From Candidatus Pacearchaeota archaeon (GTDB lineage Archaea; Nanobdellota; Nanobdellia; Pacearchaeales; GW2011-AR1): a DNA stretch of 64,000 nucleotides. Made by a program: the position numbers and the translations under genes. Positions within the stretch are counted from its first letter, which is position 1. Every line of letters begins with the position of its first letter. The notes beneath the pieces were generated by a model that saw only the letters and a list, made by a program, of their open reading frames with translations, was not told where the DNA came from and did not search any database. The stretch is from NCBI GenBank assembly GCA_041649295.1, contig JBAZNI010000001.1, positions 11,456 to 75,455 of the forward strand. The letters run 5' to 3'. Shown in pieces: positions 13,220 to 18,717 of this stretch.

Positions 13220-14194
13220 ATGAAAATTAATAAAAAAAATAAAATTGCAAGAGAAAATCTGCTTAGAAAGAGCAAAGAAGCTCAAGGACAGGATATTAAA
13301 GGCTATGATTTTAACCTTGGAGCAGATTATTCAAAAATTTTGGACAGCTATATGACTACAGGAGCACAGGCAACTAATCTGGCAAAGGCAATTGAAATAA
13401 TTAAAAAAATGAAAAAAGAAAATGCATTTATTTATTTTGGATATACCTCTAATATGGTTACAACAGGCATAAGAGAAGCAATAAGATATCTTGCTGAACA
13501 TAAGCTGATTGATTATCTTGTTACAACTGCCGGGGGAATTGAAGAAGATTTTATCAAGTGCCTTGGCACATTTAAACTTGGAGAGTTTAACTTAGATGGA
13601 AAAAAATTAAGAGATGCTGGAATAAACCGGGCAGGAAATATCCTTATTCCAAATTTAAGATATTGCGATTTTGAAGATTTTGTTATGCCCATATTGGATA
13701 AATATAAAGACAAAATAAAAACTCCTTCAGATTTAATAAGAATTTTTGGGAAAGAAATCAATAATAAAGAAAGCATTTATTACTGGTGTTATAAAAATGG
13801 TATTCCTGTTCACTGCCCTGCAATTATGGACGGAAGTTTAGGGGATATGATTTACTTTTATAAACATAAAAACGAAAATTTCAAATTAGATATTGTTGAA
13901 GATACAAAAAATTTGAACGACAGCACAATTGGAAAAAAGAAAACAGGGGTAATTATCTTGGGCGGGGGCGTTGTTAAGCATTCTATATGCAATGCCAATA
14001 TGTACAGAAATGGAGCAGATTATGCAGTTTATATAAATACTGCACAGGAATTTGATGGAGGAGATTCCGGGGCAATGCCCGACGAAGCTGTTTCATGGGG
14101 GAAAATATCAAAAACTGCTGAAAGTGTCAAGGTTTTTTCAGACGCAACTCTTGTCTTTCCATTAATTGTTGCAAAAGCATTTTTAGAAGATTAG
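13220..14194 (+). CDS. dys: deoxyhypusine synthase
   Basis: 324 aa; [11 protein letters not shown]...[15 protein letters not shown] and [13 protein letters not shown] motifs. It is functionally linked to the nearby aIF5A. Confidence 0.9.
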
Positions 14195-14475
14195 ATGGTT
14201 TCTCTTAATGCATCACGAAGATAAGCAATTATTTCTAACCAGAATAATTTTTCTTCAGTATCATCAATATCTCCAAATGTTCTATTTGGACAATTGTCTC
14301 TATATATAGAATGTGCTCTTTTAGCATACGCAATATACCTGCTTATAGCACAATGACCCGCGCCTCTTGGGTGTTGCATCAGTTTTGCACCGCATTCTAC
14401 ACCTAAATCAGTTAAACGTCTTTCTTTAAATTCTTCTGTTAATTCTCTTATCCTTTCATCAGATAATTTTTTCAT
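14191..14475 (-). CDS. hypothetical protein (94 aa, 3 Cys), last gene of the isc-like operon
   Basis: ORF immediately downstream of iscU on the same strand. I recognise no family. Confidence 0.45.
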
Positions 14476-14505: not shown

Positions 14506-14880
14506 CTATCTTTTCTTCTCGTAATCTTTAATTGCATTTCTTAATGCCTGAGTTCCGAGAACAGAGCAGTGAATTTTTATATTTGGAACTTCTCCGCCCA
14601 TTTTTTTAATTATTTCATCATAACTTATTTTCTTTGCTTCTTCAAGGGTTTTTCCTTTTGCCAATTCACACATTGCATCACTTGCAGCAATTGCCGCGAC
14701 ACATCCGTATGTTTTGAACTTAATGTCAATTATTTTCTTGGTTTTTTTATCCACTTTTAAGAAAATTCTCATTACGTCACCGCATTTCATATTTCCCTCT
14801 TGTCCAACTGCATCGGGATTTTTAATTTCTCCTGCAAATTTTGGGTTTTGAAATCTCCTAATAATTTTTTGCGAATACAT
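14506..14880 (-). CDS. iscU: Fe-S cluster assembly scaffold IscU/NifU-like
   Basis: 124 aa; GNMKCGDVM, YGCVAAIAASD and KIHCSVLG give the three conserved Cys of IscU. Confidence 0.9.
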   Translation of the reverse strand: MYSQKIIRRFQNPKFAGEIKNPDAVGQEGNMKCGDVMRIFLKVDKKTKKIIDIKFKTYGCVAAIAASDAMCELAKGKTLEEAKKISYDEIIKKMGGEVPNIKIHCSVLGTQALRNAIKDYEKKR

Positions 14881-14889
14881 TTTAGGATG

Positions 14890-14976
14890 TTAACAATTAC
14901 AGCATTTGCATTTTGGTTTGCATTTGCACGGGTTGCATCCACAGCAACTGCATACTTTTTTCTTTTTAGCTTTCAT
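14890..14976 (-). CDS. 28-aa cysteine-rich micro-protein (MKAKKKKVCSCCGCNPCKCKPKCKCCNC)
   Basis: Not on the ORF track. The ATG at 14976 is preceded by AGGAGG (14983-14988, minus strand) with a 6-nt spacer. The ORF exactly fills the iscS-iscU gap. 10 of 28 residues are Cys. Confidence 0.5.
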   Translation of the reverse strand: MKAKKKKVCSCCGCNPCKCKPKCKCCNC

Positions 14977-14995
14977 ATTTTTCCTCCTGTTTTAT

Positions 14996-16147
14996 TTAAA
15001 ATGGCGAGATTAATTTTAGTTTTTTGATAATTCCTGGCAAAACATCTAATACATAGTTAATTTCTTCTTCTGTTGTAAATCTGCTTAAAGTCAATCTTAA
15101 ACTTCCATTTGCTTCTTCATCTGTTAAACCAATTGCCTTTAGTACATAACTTGGTTCTAGTGATGCTTCACTGCATGCGCTTCCTGTTGAACTTGCAATT
15201 CCCTTTTGGTCTAAATAACCTCCTATTGCCTCACCTTCTACCCCTTTAAAAGAGAAGTTTGCATTATTGCAAAGCCGGTTATTGCCAGTTGCACCATTTA
15301 ATTTTGAATTTGGAATTTGCAATACTTCTGAAATGAGTTTATCTCTTAACTTATTCATATGTTCAGTATATTTTTTATTGCCTGCTAATTTGACAGCTTC
15401 TGCAAATCCAACAATTCCCGCAACATTTTCTGTTCCAGAACGCATGTCATTTTCCTGCCCTCCCCCATGTTGCATAGGGATTATTTTTACACCTTTTTTT
15501 ATGTATAATGCCCCAACTCCTTTTGGTCCGTGAATCTTATGAGCGTTTAATGTTACTAAATCTAAATTTTGTTTTTTTACATCTAACCTTGTTTTTGTAT
15601 AGCTTTGACAGGCATCTGTATGAAAATAAACATTATTCTTCTTACAAATTTCTCCTATTTTTTCCAAATCCTGAACAGTCCCTATTTCATTATTTCCATG
15701 AATGACAGATACTAAAATAGTTTCTTTTTTAATTTCTTTTTTTAATTCATCCAAATCAACAAAACCTTCTTTGTCAACATTAAGGTATGTTACCCTAAAT
15801 CCCTGGGTTTCAAGCCATTTACAGCTGTTTAAAACACATTTATGCTCTATTTTTGTTGTTATAATGTGGTTTCCTCTATTTTTATTTGCAAACGCAACTC
15901 CTTTTATTGTCCAATTGTTTGACTCTGTTCCGCCAGATGTAAAGAATATTTCTTCAGAATCTGCATTTATCGAATTTGCAATCACTTTTCTTGCATTTTC
16001 CAAAGCATTTTTTGCATCTCTCCCAAATGAATGAGTTGAGGAAGCATTTCCAAATTCTTTATTAAAATATTTGCTCATAGCTTCAGCTGCTTTTTCATCA
16101 ACCATTGTTGTTGCACCATTATCCAGATATATTTTTTTAAACCACAT
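14996..16147 (-). CDS. iscS: cysteine desulfurase (IscS/NifS family, PLP-dependent)
   Basis: 383 aa; SGGTESNN, the HKIHGPKGVGALY PLP-Lys region and the SSGSACSE active-site Cys loop. Confidence 0.92.
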   Translation of the reverse strand: MWFKKIYLDNGATTMVDEKAAEAMSKYFNKEFGNASSTHSFGRDAKNALENARKVIANSINADSEEIFFTSGGTESNNWTIKGVAFANKNRGNHIITTKIEHKCVLNSCKWLETQGFRVTYLNVDKEGFVDLDELKKEIKKETILVSVIHGNNEIGTVQDLEKIGEICKKNNVYFHTDACQSYTKTRLDVKKQNLDLVTLNAHKIHGPKGVGALYIKKGVKIIPMQHGGGQENDMRSGTENVAGIVGFAEAVKLAGNKKYTEHMNKLRDKLISEVLQIPNSKLNGATGNNRLCNNANFSFKGVEGEAIGGYLDQKGIASSTGSACSEASLEPSYVLKAIGLTDEEANGSLRLTLSRFTTEEEINYVLDVLPGIIKKLKLISPF

Positions 16148-16148
16148 T

Positions 16149-16466
16149 TTAGCATTTGCATAACGAGCATTTTTTAGGGCATGTTTTCGGGCAGTTTTTC
16201 ATAACATGTTTTTCAACTATTTTTAGTAAAGGTATTGCAGTTTCTTTATTCAGCGAATATATTCTTTCCTTTCCTTTCTTCTTAACATCAACTATCTGGC
16301 ATTCTGCAAGTTTTATCAAATTGTGTGAAACTTTGCTTTGCTCTTCTCCAACAGCATTTACAATCTCACTTACATTCATTGGTTTTTCTTTTAAAATTAA
16401 AATTATACTTAGCTTTGTTTTATTTGAAAAATTCATAAAAAAGTTTTCATAAGATGAATTAGACAT
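16149..16466 (-). CDS. ArsR/SmtB-family winged-helix regulator with a Cys-rich C-terminal tail
   Basis: 105 aa; LSIILILKEKPMNVSEIVNAVGEEQSKVSHNLIKL is the HTH pattern. The tail NCPKTCPKKCSLCKC has 5 Cys in 15 aa. It is the first gene of the isc-like operon. Confidence 0.8.
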   Translation of the reverse strand: MSNSSYENFFMNFSNKTKLSIILILKEKPMNVSEIVNAVGEEQSKVSHNLIKLAECQIVDVKKKGKERIYSLNKETAIPLLKIVEKHVMKNCPKTCPKKCSLCKC

Positions 16467-16485
16467 ATGAATTATAATTCATATG
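16464..16485. promoter_or_regulatory. perfect 22-bp palindrome (catatgaattataattcatatg), candidate ArsR-family operator
   Basis: Verified by hand as a perfect inverted repeat. It has the TGAA-N6-TTCA core typical of ArsR/SmtB operators. It lies between the TTTATAAA box (16489-16496) and the start codon of the regulator gene, which it overlaps. Confidence 0.55.
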
Positions 16486-16558
16486 TGTTTATAAATGTTT
16501 TGGCCGGGTTTCATAAGCTTTAACTTGTTACTATTTATAAGTTAATACCGATAGAAAT

Positions 16559-17664: not shown

Positions 17665-18717
17665 ATGAAAACTTATAAAAATCTTTACCCGCAAATTTAC
17701 AATCTATCTAATTTAATTCTTGCTTGGAGAGAAGCAAGAAAAGGCAAAACTAAAAAACCTTATGTAATAGAATTTGAAAAAGATACAATTGGAAACTTAT
17801 TAGCCTTGCAGGAAGAATTAAAAAATCAAACTTACTCTCCAAAGCCATTGGTAACTTTTATTTTGCGAGACCCAAAAACACGCAAAATCTCTAAAGCAGA
17901 TTTTAGAGACAGAATAGTCCATCATGCCATTGTAAGAATTTTAGAGCCAATTTTTGACAAAACTTTCATTTATGATTCTTGTGCAAATAGAAAAAGAAAA
18001 GGAAATCTATTTGCAATTAAAAGATTTAAGAAATTTTTAAAAAAGGTTTCAAGAAATGGAAAAACTAATGGTTGGTTTAATGAAAATCAGGTAAAAGGAT
18101 ATTGTTTCAAAGCAGACATAAAACATTATTTTGAGGAAGTTAATCATGGAATTCTTTTAGATATAATTCAAAAAAAGGTAAAAGACGAACAAACTATTTG
18201 GTTAATAGAGCAGATTATAAAAAATTATGATAATAAAGAAAAAGGAATGCCCTTGGGAAATTTAACATCACAATTTTTTGCAAATGTTTATCTTAATGAC
18301 TTAGATTATTTTGTTAAGCATAAGTTAAAAGCAAAGTATTATATTCGATATGTTGATGACTTTGTCTTGTTGAGCAGTTCTAAAGTTCAATTAAAATTAT
18401 GGATGGGAGATATCGAACATTTTTTAATAGATAAGTTAACCCTCGAATTACATAAACAAAAATCAAAGATTACCTCCCTATCAAGAGGAATAGACTTTGT
18501 TGGTTTTAGAAACTTTTATTATTATAGATTAGTCAGAACAAGAAATATTAGGAACATACGAAATAAAATTAATGATTATAAAAAGTTTAAAATTCCTTAT
18601 GTTAACATATTGGATAGTTTTCAAGGATGGCAGGCATATGCAATGTGGGCAGATGCTTATAGATTGAGAGAGAATCTTTTAAAACAAATAATTTTAAATA
18701 CTCCCCCATCTCCATAA
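17665..18717 (+). CDS. DGR-type reverse transcriptase
   Basis: 350 aa. RT motifs are PKPLVTFILRDPKTRKISKADFRDRIVHHAI, FKADIKHYF, MPLGNLTSQFFANVYLNDLD (the GxxxSQ hallmark of DGR RTs) and YIRYVDDF. There is no maturase or endonuclease tail. Confidence 0.88.
   Translation: MKTYKNLYPQIYNLSNLILAWREARKGKTKKPYVIEFEKDTIGNLLALQEELKNQTYSPKPLVTFILRDPKTRKISKADFRDRIVHHAIVRILEPIFDKTFIYDSCANRKRKGNLFAIKRFKKFLKKVSRNGKTNGWFNENQVKGYCFKADIKHYFEEVNHGILLDIIQKKVKDEQTIWLIEQIIKNYDNKEKGMPLGNLTSQFFANVYLNDLDYFVKHKLKAKYYIRYVDDFVLLSSSKVQLKLWMGDIEHFLIDKLTLELHKQKSKITSLSRGIDFVGFRNFYYYRLVRTRNIRNIRNKINDYKKFKIPYVNILDSFQGWQAYAMWADAYRLRENLLKQIILNTPPSP

What the first reader, a model, noticed from the sequence alone, without database searches (positions are those of the whole stretch)
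14890..14976. Hidden 28-aa, 10-cysteine micro-ORF with a strong Shine-Dalgarno sequence between iscS and iscU
The 115-nt iscS-iscU spacer encodes, on the operon strand, MKAKKKKVCSCCGCNPCKCKPKCKCCNC. AGGAGG lies 6 nt upstream of its ATG, directly after the iscS stop. Its TAA lies 9 nt before the iscU ATG. CxC, CC and CxxC spacing with interspersed Lys resembles metallothionein-like or metal-chaperone peptides. Its position inside a cysteine-desulfurase/scaffold operon suggests a role in Fe, S or metal handling or buffering. A coupling or leader peptide is another possibility. The operon's regulator carries a similar Cys/Lys/Pro tail (see next finding). The ORF is too short for the supplied ORF track.
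Basis: seen in the sequence. Interest (0 to 1): 0.65.

Follow-up and report, generated by a model that had tools for sequence, protein, structure and literature searches.

The report
Conserved cysteine-rich micropeptide gene before iscU
The 28-codon, 10-cysteine reading frame between the cysteine desulfurase and the iron-sulfur scaffold gene is a real, unannotated, protein-level-conserved gene found at the same spot in at least four other small-genome archaea, and it looks like a metallothionein-type metal/sulfur-binding helper of the simplest known iron-sulfur cluster machinery.

Summary
The ORF is window 14890-14976 (-), MKAKKKKVCSCCGCNPCKCKPKCKCCNC. AGGAGG lies 6 nt upstream and TAA lies 9 nt before the iscU ATG. 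It is the strongest Cys outlier of all six-frame ORFs in the window.

Four more distinct homologues (33-36 aa, 12-13 Cys) were found in independent metagenomes. Each sits directly upstream of iscU on the operon strand, 1-25 nt from its ATG.

Thirteen positions are invariant:
- nine Cys
- one Pro
- three Lys

Third codon positions vary in 17 of 19 core columns and second positions in 4 of 19. TGC and TGT flip at 7 of 8 invariant core Cys. This shows selection on the encoded peptide.

Composition is metallothionein-like: 33-39% Cys, with no aromatic residues or His among 100 non-Cys residues. No Pfam, NCBIfam, PDB or protein-database hit exists, and gene callers miss the ORF.

Best reading: a metal-thiolate or Fe-S-binding accessory micropeptide made together with IscU in an otherwise two-component archaeal IscS-IscU (MIS-type) system. 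Main rival: a Cys-tRNA-sensing upstream ORF that gates iscU translation. The function is inferred, not shown.

The parts
14983..14988 (-). Shine-Dalgarno AGGAGG of the micro-ORF, 6 nt before its ATG and 7 nt after the iscS stop
   Evidence: Read directly. The motif with its upstream context AAACAGGAGG is conserved in 4 of 5 family members. GGAGG followed by ATG is otherwise seen mainly at ribosomal-protein and S-layer-like genes in the window.
14890..14976 (-). Micro-ORF, 28 codons plus TAA: MKAKKKKVCSCCGCNPCKCKPKCKCCNC. It has a Lys-rich N-terminal stretch followed by a 10-Cys core.
   Evidence: establish the ORF and its outlier Cys content. Four distinct homologues were found. Alignment A1 has 13 invariant positions. 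The codon-position pattern is 8/4/17 variable columns of 19, with pN 0.06-0.21 and pS saturated. The family profile scores members at 41-52 bits and background at 16 bits or less.
14881..14889 (-). 9-nt junction CATCCTAAA between the micro-ORF stop and the iscU ATG; iscU has no SD of its own
   Evidence: The corresponding distances in homologous loci are 1, 3, 15 and 25 nt.
14506..14880 (-). iscU (MisU-type scaffold), 124 aa, with ligand motifs CGD, GC and HC present
   Evidence: Pfam NifU_N 3.1e-43. NCBIfam NifU/IscU models match.
14996..16147 (-). iscS/nifS-type cysteine desulfurase, 383 aa
   Evidence: Pfam Aminotran_5 7.8e-86. NCBIfam FeS_nifS 1.2e-152 and IscS 6.7e-135.
16149..16466 (-). 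ArsR/SmtB-family regulator, 105 aa, with a 5-Cys C-terminal tail (NCPKTCPKKCSLCKC). It is the first gene of the operon and its stop lies 1 nt before the iscS ATG.
   Evidence: HTH_5 1.3e-08. NF033788 4.8e-17. The tail is conserved as a 4-5 Cys cluster in relatives with and without the micro-ORF.
16464..16495 (-). Operon promoter and operator: TATA-like TTTATAAA (16495-16488) and a perfect 22-nt palindrome CATATGAATTATAATTCATATG (16485-16464) that overlaps the regulator's ATG. This predicts a leaderless, autoregulated transcript.
   Evidence: Read. The same TATA plus ATATGAAT-N-ATTCATATG arrangement is present upstream of the regulator in L166, L203, L170, L200, L168, L001 and L002.

Best explanation
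The micro-ORF is a translated gene for a 28-aa metallothionein-like micropeptide. It has a Lys-rich N-terminal stretch and a core with the pattern [VI]-C-x-C-C-x-C-x-P-C-x-C-x-x-x-C-K-C-C-...-C.

It is transcribed as part of the leaderless ArsR-iscS-(micro-ORF)-iscU operon. It is initiated from its own strong SD and is made next to, and probably in step with, the IscU scaffold.

The 10-13 thiolates would wrap a small metal-thiolate or iron-sulfur cluster, by analogy with 9-11-Cys metallothionein domains that hold 3-4 divalent ions. The peptide would then serve the two-component archaeal IscS-IscU (MIS-type) machinery as a holder, donor or buffer of iron, sulfur or nascent cluster, or as a protective thiol or Zn buffer for the scaffold.

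Shown: the ORF, its SD, its conservation, its protein-level purifying selection, its composition and its fixed position before iscU.

Inferred: translation, metal or Fe-S binding, and partnership with IscU.
For: 1. Five distinct homologues sit in the same place and on the same strand, directly before iscU. They come from independent metagenomes.

2. In L166 an HD-domain gene separates iscS from the micro-ORF, so the gene stays with iscU.

3. Thirteen positions are invariant, including 9 Cys, Pro16 and Lys24.

4. Coding periodicity is clear. In the 19-codon core, variable columns number 8, 4 and 17 at codon positions 1, 2 and 3. pN is 0.06-0.21 and synonymous sites are saturated. TGC and TGT flip in 7 of 8 invariant Cys columns.

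5. Non-Cys positions are also constrained. There are no aromatic residues or His among 100 non-Cys residues, against 10.9% in the window proteome. Only 7 are hydrophobic, against 36.6%. Cys content is 33-39%, with CxC, CC and CxxC arrays. These are the textbook metallothionein hallmarks (PMC2234263, PMC7558416).

6. A strong SD in the conserved context AAACAGGAGG is present in 4 of 5 members.

7. The spacer has no significant RNA structure: z = +0.69 for the window sequence, and the alignment consensus is only -7.8 kcal/mol. No repeat or paralogue in the window explains it.

8. Other small Cys-bearing ORFs recur in related isc operons. Examples are DUF1858, a 64-aa ORF with 16 Cys, and a 40-aa ORF with a CEPCVECGYCK tail. 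This shows that small thiol proteins are habitual partners of this operon.

9. The MIS system is described as lacking known accessory factors (PMC13066941).
Against: - There is no direct evidence of translation or metal binding. Only DNA runs hold the sequence.
- There is no sequence relationship to any curated metallothionein family or solved structure.
- The distribution is patchy. Several relatives at 70-80% IscS or IscU identity have iscS and iscU abutting without it. It is therefore dispensable for the core machinery.
- One core Cys is replaced by Gly in L203.
- Net charge varies from +2 to +10.
- Conservation of Cys codons is also what a Cys-sensing upstream ORF would show.
Confidence: 0.5

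Rival explanations
1. Cysteine-sensing upstream ORF. The point is the act of translating 10-13 Cys codons, not the peptide. iscU has no SD and starts 1-25 nt after the micro-ORF stop. Its translation would therefore depend on ribosomes finishing the micro-ORF. When Cys-tRNA(Cys) is scarce, ribosomes stall and scaffold synthesis drops, or changes, matching IscU output to the supply of the desulfurase's substrate.
For: - Runs of 2 to 5 consecutive Cys codons are present.
- All five micro-ORF loci lack an SD within 3-14 nt of the iscU ATG, while the micro-ORF carries the strong SD.
- There is a precedent for polycysteine sORFs acting as Cys-responsive attenuators in mycobacteria (bioRxiv 10.1101/834739).
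- The operon consumes cysteine.
Against: - Individual Cys positions, a Pro, Lys residues and the exclusion of aromatic and hydrophobic residues are conserved across saturated synonymous divergence. A codon-count sensor would not require this.
- There is no RNA duplex to be opened by a stalled ribosome.
- The ORF is internal and SD-led, not a leaderless first ORF.
- The stop-to-start distance varies from 1 to 25 nt. Termination-reinitiation is almost abolished at about 20 nt in the archaeon and bacterium tested (PMC10666635).
- Several relatives without the micro-ORF also lack an SD before iscU.
Confidence: 0.2
2. A general metallothionein or thiol buffer for heavy-metal or oxidant protection, for example in metal-rich landfill or sediment habitats. 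It would sit in the isc operon only to borrow its expression, with no specific role in Fe-S assembly.
For: - The composition is metallothionein-like.
- The source is a landfill metagenome.
- The operon regulator belongs to the ArsR/SmtB metalloregulator family, the family that controls bacterial metallothioneins (PMC8790569, abstract listed).
- The patchy, accessory-like distribution fits.
Against: In five independent lineages it is always at exactly the same place, immediately before iscU. This holds even when another gene is inserted after iscS. The regulator and its operator are conserved in relatives that lack the micro-ORF, so the regulator did not arrive with the peptide.
Confidence: 0.12
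3. Stop-codon readthrough or an ancestral fusion. The micro-ORF would be an N-terminal Cys-rich extension of IscU, separated from it by one stop codon.
For: In the window, L166 and L206 the micro-ORF is in frame with iscU. The two are separated by the stop plus 9, 3 and 15 nt.
Against: - It is out of frame in L203/L204 and L205. Three of five in frame is expected by chance about one time in five.
- The stops differ (TAA, TAG).
- A search with the hypothetical fusion found no IscU with a Cys-rich N-terminal extension among the best 120 of 1,417 hits.
Confidence: 0.03
4. Not a gene. It would be a chance ORF in a spacer whose TGCAAA-type repeats serve as a DNA or RNA element, such as a regulator binding site, a processing site or a terminator.
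For: There is a weak hexamer periodicity: GCATTT x4.5, score 33. TGCAAATGC occurs twice in the ORF and once at the end of the regulator gene.
Against: - The codon-position pattern of substitutions and the conserved frame in five lineages point to coding.
- The likely operator is a different, palindromic sequence at the promoter.
- There is no significant RNA structure.
- There is no terminator on the operon strand.
Confidence: 0.03

Closest known systems
Metallothioneins, especially the smallest ones (single-domain fungal Cu-MTs of about 25 aa, the 9-Cys beta-domain of vertebrate MT, mycobacterial MymT)
   Same: - Very small size.
- About one third Cys, arranged as CxC, CC and CxxC.
- No aromatic residues or His.
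- Fillers are Lys, Ser, Asn, Gly, Pro and Glu.
- Unannotated because of its size. MymT was likewise found as a non-annotated ORF (PMC7558416).
- Length variation arises by adding Cys-containing units at the C-terminus.
   Different: - No sequence homology to any curated MT family.
- It is archaeal. The reviews read here list eukaryotic and bacterial MTs only.
- It is embedded in an Fe-S assembly operon, immediately before iscU, rather than standing alone or sitting next to metal-efflux genes.
- It has a conserved Lys-rich N-terminal stretch.
- Metal binding is untested.

The sizes and Cys counts of the fungal and vertebrate examples are from my own knowledge.
Polycysteine leaderless sORF attenuators of mycobacteria (Canestrari et al., bioRxiv 10.1101/834739)
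   Same: A short unannotated ORF, rich in Cys codons including consecutive ones, sits upstream of an operonic gene in sulfur or cysteine-related metabolism.
   Different: - The mycobacterial sORFs are leaderless first ORFs of cysteine-biosynthesis operons. The characterised one works by a stalled ribosome opening an RNA duplex that hides the next RBS.
- Here the ORF is internal and SD-led.
- No duplex is predicted here.
- The pathway here consumes cysteine.
- The peptide sequence, not only the Cys count, is conserved here.
Accessory factors of Fe-S assembly systems (IscX, CyaY/frataxin, ferredoxin, A-type carriers; archaeal IssA storage protein)
   Same: It is a small protein encoded with the desulfurase and scaffold genes. 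It could supply or hold iron, sulfur, electrons or clusters. It would fill a gap in the MIS system, which is described as having only MisS and MisU (PMC13066941).
   Different: It has no homology to any of these. It is far smaller. It is basic rather than acidic, whereas IscX and CyaY are acidic (my own knowledge). Its Cys density is far higher.
DUF1858 and other small Cys proteins in DPANN isc operons
   Same: They share the operon neighbourhood. DUF1858 follows iscU in many relatives. Other small Cys-bearing ORFs occur in L081, L089, L007 and L090.
   Different: The sequences are unrelated. DUF1858 has a single CxxC-type motif and is 65-80 aa long. DUF1858 and the micro-ORF can co-occur, as in L203 and L204.

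Membership tests
Metallothionein (operational definition) | Low molecular weight | tested here: met
   The five members are 28-36 aa.
Metallothionein (operational definition) | High Cys content (about 30% or more) arranged as CxC, CC and CxxC | tested here: met
   Cys is 33-39% in all five members. The window peptide has C-x-C five times, CC twice, CxxC once and CxxxC once.
Metallothionein (operational definition) | Absence of aromatic residues and histidine | tested here: met
   None among 100 non-Cys residues across the five members, against 10.9% in the window's proteome.
Metallothionein (operational definition) | Binds several metal ions in metal-thiolate clusters | not testable with these tools
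   This needs peptide chemistry: ESI-MS, UV-vis or CD titration.
Curated metallothionein sequence families (Pfam) or solved MT structures | Significant sequence match to a family model or a PDB chain | tested here: not met
   No Pfam hit at E up to 10 for any member. No NCBIfam hit. The single-sequence PDB search gave only a conotoxin at E 0.61. The profile search gave nothing.
Polycysteine attenuator sORFs (mycobacterial type) | At least two consecutive Cys codons in a short ORF upstream of operonic genes | tested here: met
   CC occurs twice in the window peptide. Relatives have CCCC or CCCCC.
Polycysteine attenuator sORFs (mycobacterial type) | Leaderless first ORF of the transcript | tested here: not met
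   The ORF is internal, after the regulator and iscS, and is SD-led.
Polycysteine attenuator sORFs (mycobacterial type) | RNA duplex that sequesters the downstream ribosome-binding site and is opened by a stalled ribosome (shown for the one sORF characterised in detail, Ms5788A) | tested here: not met
   The MFE z-score is +0.69. The alifold consensus is -7.8 kcal/mol with no convincing covariation.
Polycysteine attenuator sORFs (mycobacterial type) | Cysteine-responsive expression of the downstream gene | not testable with these tools
   This needs a reporter assay under cysteine limitation.
Minimal IscS-IscU (MIS-type) Fe-S assembly operon | Adjacent class-V aminotransferase-type cysteine desulfurase and single-domain NifU_N scaffold, with no chaperones or carriers in the operon | tested here: met
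   Searches identify the two genes. The neighbours are an ArsR regulator and an unknown 94-aa ORF. Phylogenetic placement within MisS/MisU was not done.
Translationally coupled (termination-reinitiation) gene pair | Overlap or very short stop-to-start distance (coupling almost lost at about 20 nt) | tested here: inconclusive
   The distances are 9 nt in the window and 1, 3, 15 and 25 nt in relatives. The criterion is from PMC10666635.
Cys-rich RiPP precursors (SCIFF / ranthipeptide type) | Match to a precursor family model and an adjacent radical-SAM maturase | tested here: not met
   No NCBIfam hit. No radical-SAM gene is present in the operon or its flanks in any of the loci.

The most novel reading that the evidence does not exclude
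This would be the first archaeal metallothionein-type peptide and the first dedicated accessory factor of the minimal IscS-IscU (MIS) system. The micropeptide would hold Fe(II) or a nascent Fe-S cluster on 10-13 thiolates and hand it to, or take it from, IscU. Translating its many Cys codons immediately upstream would also tie scaffold synthesis to cysteine supply. One 87-nt gene would then act both as cofactor donor and as substrate sensor.
Probability: 0.25. Interest if true: 0.85.

Novelty: new variant of a known kind. Interest (0 to 1): 0.7.

Why it matters
The source of iron, and the need for any helper, in the two-component archaeal IscS-IscU system is an open question. A recent review calls MIS the least studied system and expects novel supporting factors (PMC13066941).

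This peptide family is invisible to gene callers and to every protein database searched here: 5.8 billion proteins, 1.84 billion representatives, Pfam, NCBIfam and PDB. Yet it is under clear protein-level selection at a fixed position in front of the scaffold gene. It therefore gives a concrete candidate that can be made synthetically.

A 28-aa peptide can be synthesised. It can be titrated with metals and added to an IscS-IscU reconstitution. The hypothesis is therefore directly testable even though the organisms are uncultured.

It would also extend metallothionein-like peptides to archaea. It illustrates how many functional micro-genes may hide in 'spacers' of DPANN genomes.

Tried and rejected
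1. IscS-based locus retrieval in genome contigs and metagenome contigs found no micro-ORF in the nearest relatives returned there, at up to 72% identity. Taken alone this would have suggested an orphan.

2. The peptide is too short for the homologue search. A doubled-peptide query found nothing among 5.8e9 proteins. A 33-aa upstream-extended query found nothing among 1.84e9 representatives.

3. Population variation: only two landfill DNA runs hold the sequence. Both are identical there, and no RNA run holds it.

4. A degenerate DNA pattern for the Cys core was searched in viral contigs. It gave 27 matches, all off-frame chance matches without a start codon and with hydrophobic tails.

5. Origin by duplication of the regulator's Cys tail was rejected. 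Only an 11-mer is shared.

6. A DNA-repeat or operator explanation was rejected. There is only a weak hexamer periodicity, and the real palindromic operator lies elsewhere.

7. A structured RNA or terminator was rejected.

8. A readthrough fusion to IscU was rejected. Two lineages are out of frame and no fused homologues were found.

9. SD presence before iscU was tried as a discriminator between loci with and without the micro-ORF. It was not clean, because several loci without it also lack an SD.

What worked:
- Closest IscS homologues from the large protein collection were looked up on their contigs.
- Two IscU entries carried spurious N-terminal extensions that were the micro-ORF read in another frame.

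Full report
**Observation**

On the minus strand the sequence reads as follows:
- iscS ends with TAA at 14998-14996.
- Seven nt later comes AGGAGG (14988-14983).
- Six nt later comes ATG (14976).
- Then come 28 codons, MKAKKKKVCSCCGCNPCKCKPKCKCCNC.
- TAA is at 14892-14890.
- Nine nt follow (CATCCTAAA).
- The iscU ATG is at 14880.

- a class-V aminotransferase-type cysteine desulfurase (Aminotran_5 7.8e-86; NifS/IscS models 1e-152/7e-135)
- a single-domain NifU_N scaffold (3.1e-43)
- an ArsR/SmtB-type regulator (NF033788 4.8e-17) ending in NCPKTCPKKCSLCKC

The window has 32% G+C. Of about 1,700 six-frame ORFs of at least 20 aa, this one has 10 Cys in 21 residues; the runner-up has 7.

Strong SD sequences are rare here. 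In a crude gene set, 4 of 64 genes have one. GGAGG followed by ATG mostly marks ribosomal-protein genes and an S-layer-like gene. So the SD is informative.

**Is it a gene? Comparative evidence**

The first round looked negative. Loci retrieved through IscS from one-genome-per-species contigs and from JGI metagenomes were at most 72% identical. They showed iscS and iscU abutting or overlapping, or separated by other small genes, with no Cys-rich ORF.

The identical spacer exists in two other assemblies: a 107-kb ENA contig and a landfill run at about 16x depth. That shows it is not an assembly error, but it gives no variation.

The peptide itself finds nothing:
- Pfam and NCBIfam
- PDB
- 5.8 billion proteins, using a doubled query because the tool needs at least 40 aa
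- 1.84 billion representatives, using a 33-aa upstream-extended query

The breakthrough came from the closest IscS and IscU proteins of the large collection, looked up on their contigs. Four further, mutually distinct homologues emerged. All lie on the operon strand directly before iscU:

| Locus | Peptide | Length / Cys | Distance from stop to iscU ATG | Notes |
|---|---|---|---|---|
| L166/L167 | MKQKIKQKQVCECCKCSPCECKSDCKCCCCCEC | 33 aa / 13 Cys | 3 nt | AGGAGG 7 nt upstream |
| L203/L204 | MKQKTKEKEICSCCECSPCKCESGGKCCCCNCC | 33 aa / 12 Cys | 25 nt | |
| L205 | MKQKSKEKKICSCCECSPCKCEPECKCCCCNCNCQ | 35 aa / 13 Cys | 1 nt | |
| L206 | MKKKKQIKKKVCECCKCNPCKCEPTCKCCNCKPCKC | 36 aa / 12 Cys | 15 nt | starts 2 nt after the iscS stop |

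In L166 an HD-domain gene lies between iscS and the micro-ORF, so the micro-ORF travels with iscU. L203 and L205 were spotted because gene callers had given their IscU a spurious N-terminal extension. That extension is the micro-ORF read in another frame. None of the micro-ORFs was called as a gene in any source.

**Selection**

The alignment (A1) has 13 invariant positions, in window numbering: K2, K6, C9, C11, C12, C14, P16, C17, C19, K24, C25, C26 and C28.

In the gap-free 19-codon core:
- Variable columns number 8, 4 and 17 at codon positions 1, 2 and 3.
- Pairwise pN is 0.06-0.21, while synonymous sites are saturated.
- Seven of the eight invariant core Cys columns switch between TGC and TGT.

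That is the signature of a translated sequence under purifying selection. It is not the signature of a DNA or RNA element.

A profile built from the five peptides scores the members at 41-52 bits against the six-frame translation of all about 210 fetched loci. Nothing else exceeds 16 bits.

The spacer has no significant RNA structure: z = +0.69, with an alignment consensus of -7.8 kcal/mol. There is no operon-strand terminator. There is only a weak hexamer periodicity that reflects the Cys-Lys repeats.

**What kind of peptide**

Cys makes up 33-39% of each member. Among 100 non-Cys residues there is no aromatic residue or His, against 10.9% in the window proteome. Only 7 are hydrophobic, against 36.6%. 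The rest are Lys, Glu, Ser, Pro, Asn, Gln and Gly. The Cys are arranged as CxC, CC and CxxC.

These are the operational hallmarks of metallothioneins (PMC2234263, PMC7558416). However, there is no homology to any curated MT family or to any structure. It is therefore metallothionein-like by composition, not a member of a known MT sequence family.

The N-terminal 7-10 residues are always Lys-rich. The C-terminus varies by adding Cys units (CC-N-C; CCCC-N-CC; CCCCC-E-C; an extra KPCKC).

**Context**

The operon is conserved in these DPANN-type archaea. The nearest IscS relatives are Nanoarchaeota, Woesearchaeota and Pacearchaeota MAGs. The order is ArsR-type regulator, then iscS, then iscU. It is often followed by a DUF1858 protein, and FtsZ is nearby.

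The promoter is a TATA-like TTTATAAA plus a perfect 22-nt palindrome that overlaps the regulator's ATG. This implies a leaderless, autoregulated transcript. The arrangement is conserved in relatives.

The regulator's Cys tail is family-wide:
- One subtype has Cys3 and a 2-3-Cys tail.
- The other, which includes the window, lacks Cys3 and has a 4-5-Cys tail.

The tail occurs with or without the micro-ORF. It is therefore most likely the regulator's own metal or Fe-S sensing site. It is not related to the micropeptide, with which it shares only an 11-mer.

The micro-ORF is patchy. About 5 of about 21 distinct archaeal loci carrying iscU have it. These loci are interleaved, by IscU and IscS identity, with loci that lack it.

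**Mechanism**

Most likely (about 0.5): a translated micropeptide that folds around a metal-thiolate or Fe-S cluster and works with IscU as holder, donor or buffer of iron, sulfur or cluster.

What supports the peptide being the functional entity:
- the position-specific conservation of Cys, Pro and Lys
- the exclusion of bulky residues
- the fixed location

What is inferred: metal binding and the link to IscU chemistry. The MIS-type system is described as having only the desulfurase and the scaffold, with additional factors expected (PMC13066941).

Main rival (about 0.2): a Cys-tRNA-sensing upstream ORF that gates iscU translation.
- iscU lacks an SD in all five loci, while the micro-ORF has a strong one in four.
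- Polycysteine sORF attenuators exist in mycobacteria (10.1101/834739).
- However, those are leaderless first ORFs, and the one characterised in detail acts through an RNA duplex. Here the ORF is internal and no duplex is predicted.
- The stop-to-start distance ranges from 1 to 25 nt, and coupling is nearly lost at about 20 nt in tested species (PMC10666635).
- Residue-level conservation goes beyond what a codon counter needs.

The two ideas are not exclusive.

Minor rivals:
- A general detoxifying metallothionein that merely uses the operon for expression (0.12). The invariant position before iscU argues against it.
- Readthrough fusion to IscU (0.03). Two lineages are out of frame, and no fused IscU was found.
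- Not a gene (0.03). The codon pattern refutes this.

**Novelty and verdict**

I found no description of such a peptide in the literature searched and no database entry. It is best classed as a new variant of a known kind: metallothionein-like Cys-rich micropeptides, here in archaea, in a new family and a new genomic role. It is directly testable with a synthetic peptide and recombinant IscS and IscU. Interest 0.7.

Noticed in passing
window 16464-16495 (-); also L166, L203, L170, L200, L168, L001, L002 upstream of the regulator: There is a conserved promoter and operator. A TATA-like TTTATAAA is followed by a perfect 22-nt palindrome, CATATGAATTATAATTCATATG, that overlaps the ArsR-type regulator's ATG. 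This predicts a leaderless, autorepressed isc operon.
   Followed up: partly
window 16149-16200 (-) and the regulators in L001, L002, L081, L084, L165, L166, L170, L199, L200, L203: The isc regulator comes in two subtypes. One has Cys at position 3 (MKCKSY...) and a short 2-3-Cys tail. The other, which includes the window, lacks Cys3 and has a 4-5-Cys tail. This looks like a relocated ligand set for a metal or Fe-S sensor.
   Followed up: partly
L089 2285-2479 (+): An unannotated 64-aa ORF with 16 Cys lies just upstream of the isc regulator in another DPANN-type contig. Its sequence is MEICPTCGLEADNICSSCNSCTNCCGCSNDNSLKICPQCGNEVFNLCPMCGKCQTCCECQENNF and it has a two-fold internal repeat. It is a different Cys-rich small protein next to the same operon.
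   Followed up: no
L007 2267-2377 (+); L090 4173-4295 (+): A conserved, very acidic 36-40-aa ORF lies between iscS and a DUF1858 gene that precedes iscU. An example is MKSYSKHFCGFKNESECREEIEEEMLDYDEALEELE, with a C-x7-C motif. It may be an acidic partner in the manner of IscX.
   Followed up: no
L081/L082 4754-4876 (+): A 40-aa ORF ending in KKKCEPCVECGYCK lies between the DUF1858 gene and a glutaredoxin-like gene, downstream of iscU.
   Followed up: no
L163 3219-4670; L166 3849 onward: IscU is interrupted by an intein (Intein_splicing/LAGLIDADG hits) in two relatives. One of them also carries the micro-ORF.
   Followed up: no
window 14191-14475 (-): A 94-aa ORF lies right after iscU, 30 nt downstream. 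It has no Pfam or NCBIfam hit and contains three Cys. It occupies the place where relatives have DUF1858, and its 3' end overlaps the convergent deoxyhypusine synthase gene by 4 nt.
   Followed up: no
window 17665-18717 (+): A 350-aa reverse transcriptase (RVT_1 hit on record) lies next to the isc locus. It is probably a group II intron or retron-type element.
   Followed up: no
L203 2136-2163 (+): The 25-nt gap between the micro-ORF stop and iscU contains a tandem duplication of about 14 nt (TAAGTTTGTTAAAAT twice). This explains why the gap is longer here than in the other members.
   Followed up: no
window, whole: Only about 4-6 of about 64 genes have a GGAGG-type SD. Most starts are preceded by A/T-rich sequence, which suggests mostly leaderless or SD-independent initiation in this genome.
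   Followed up: partly
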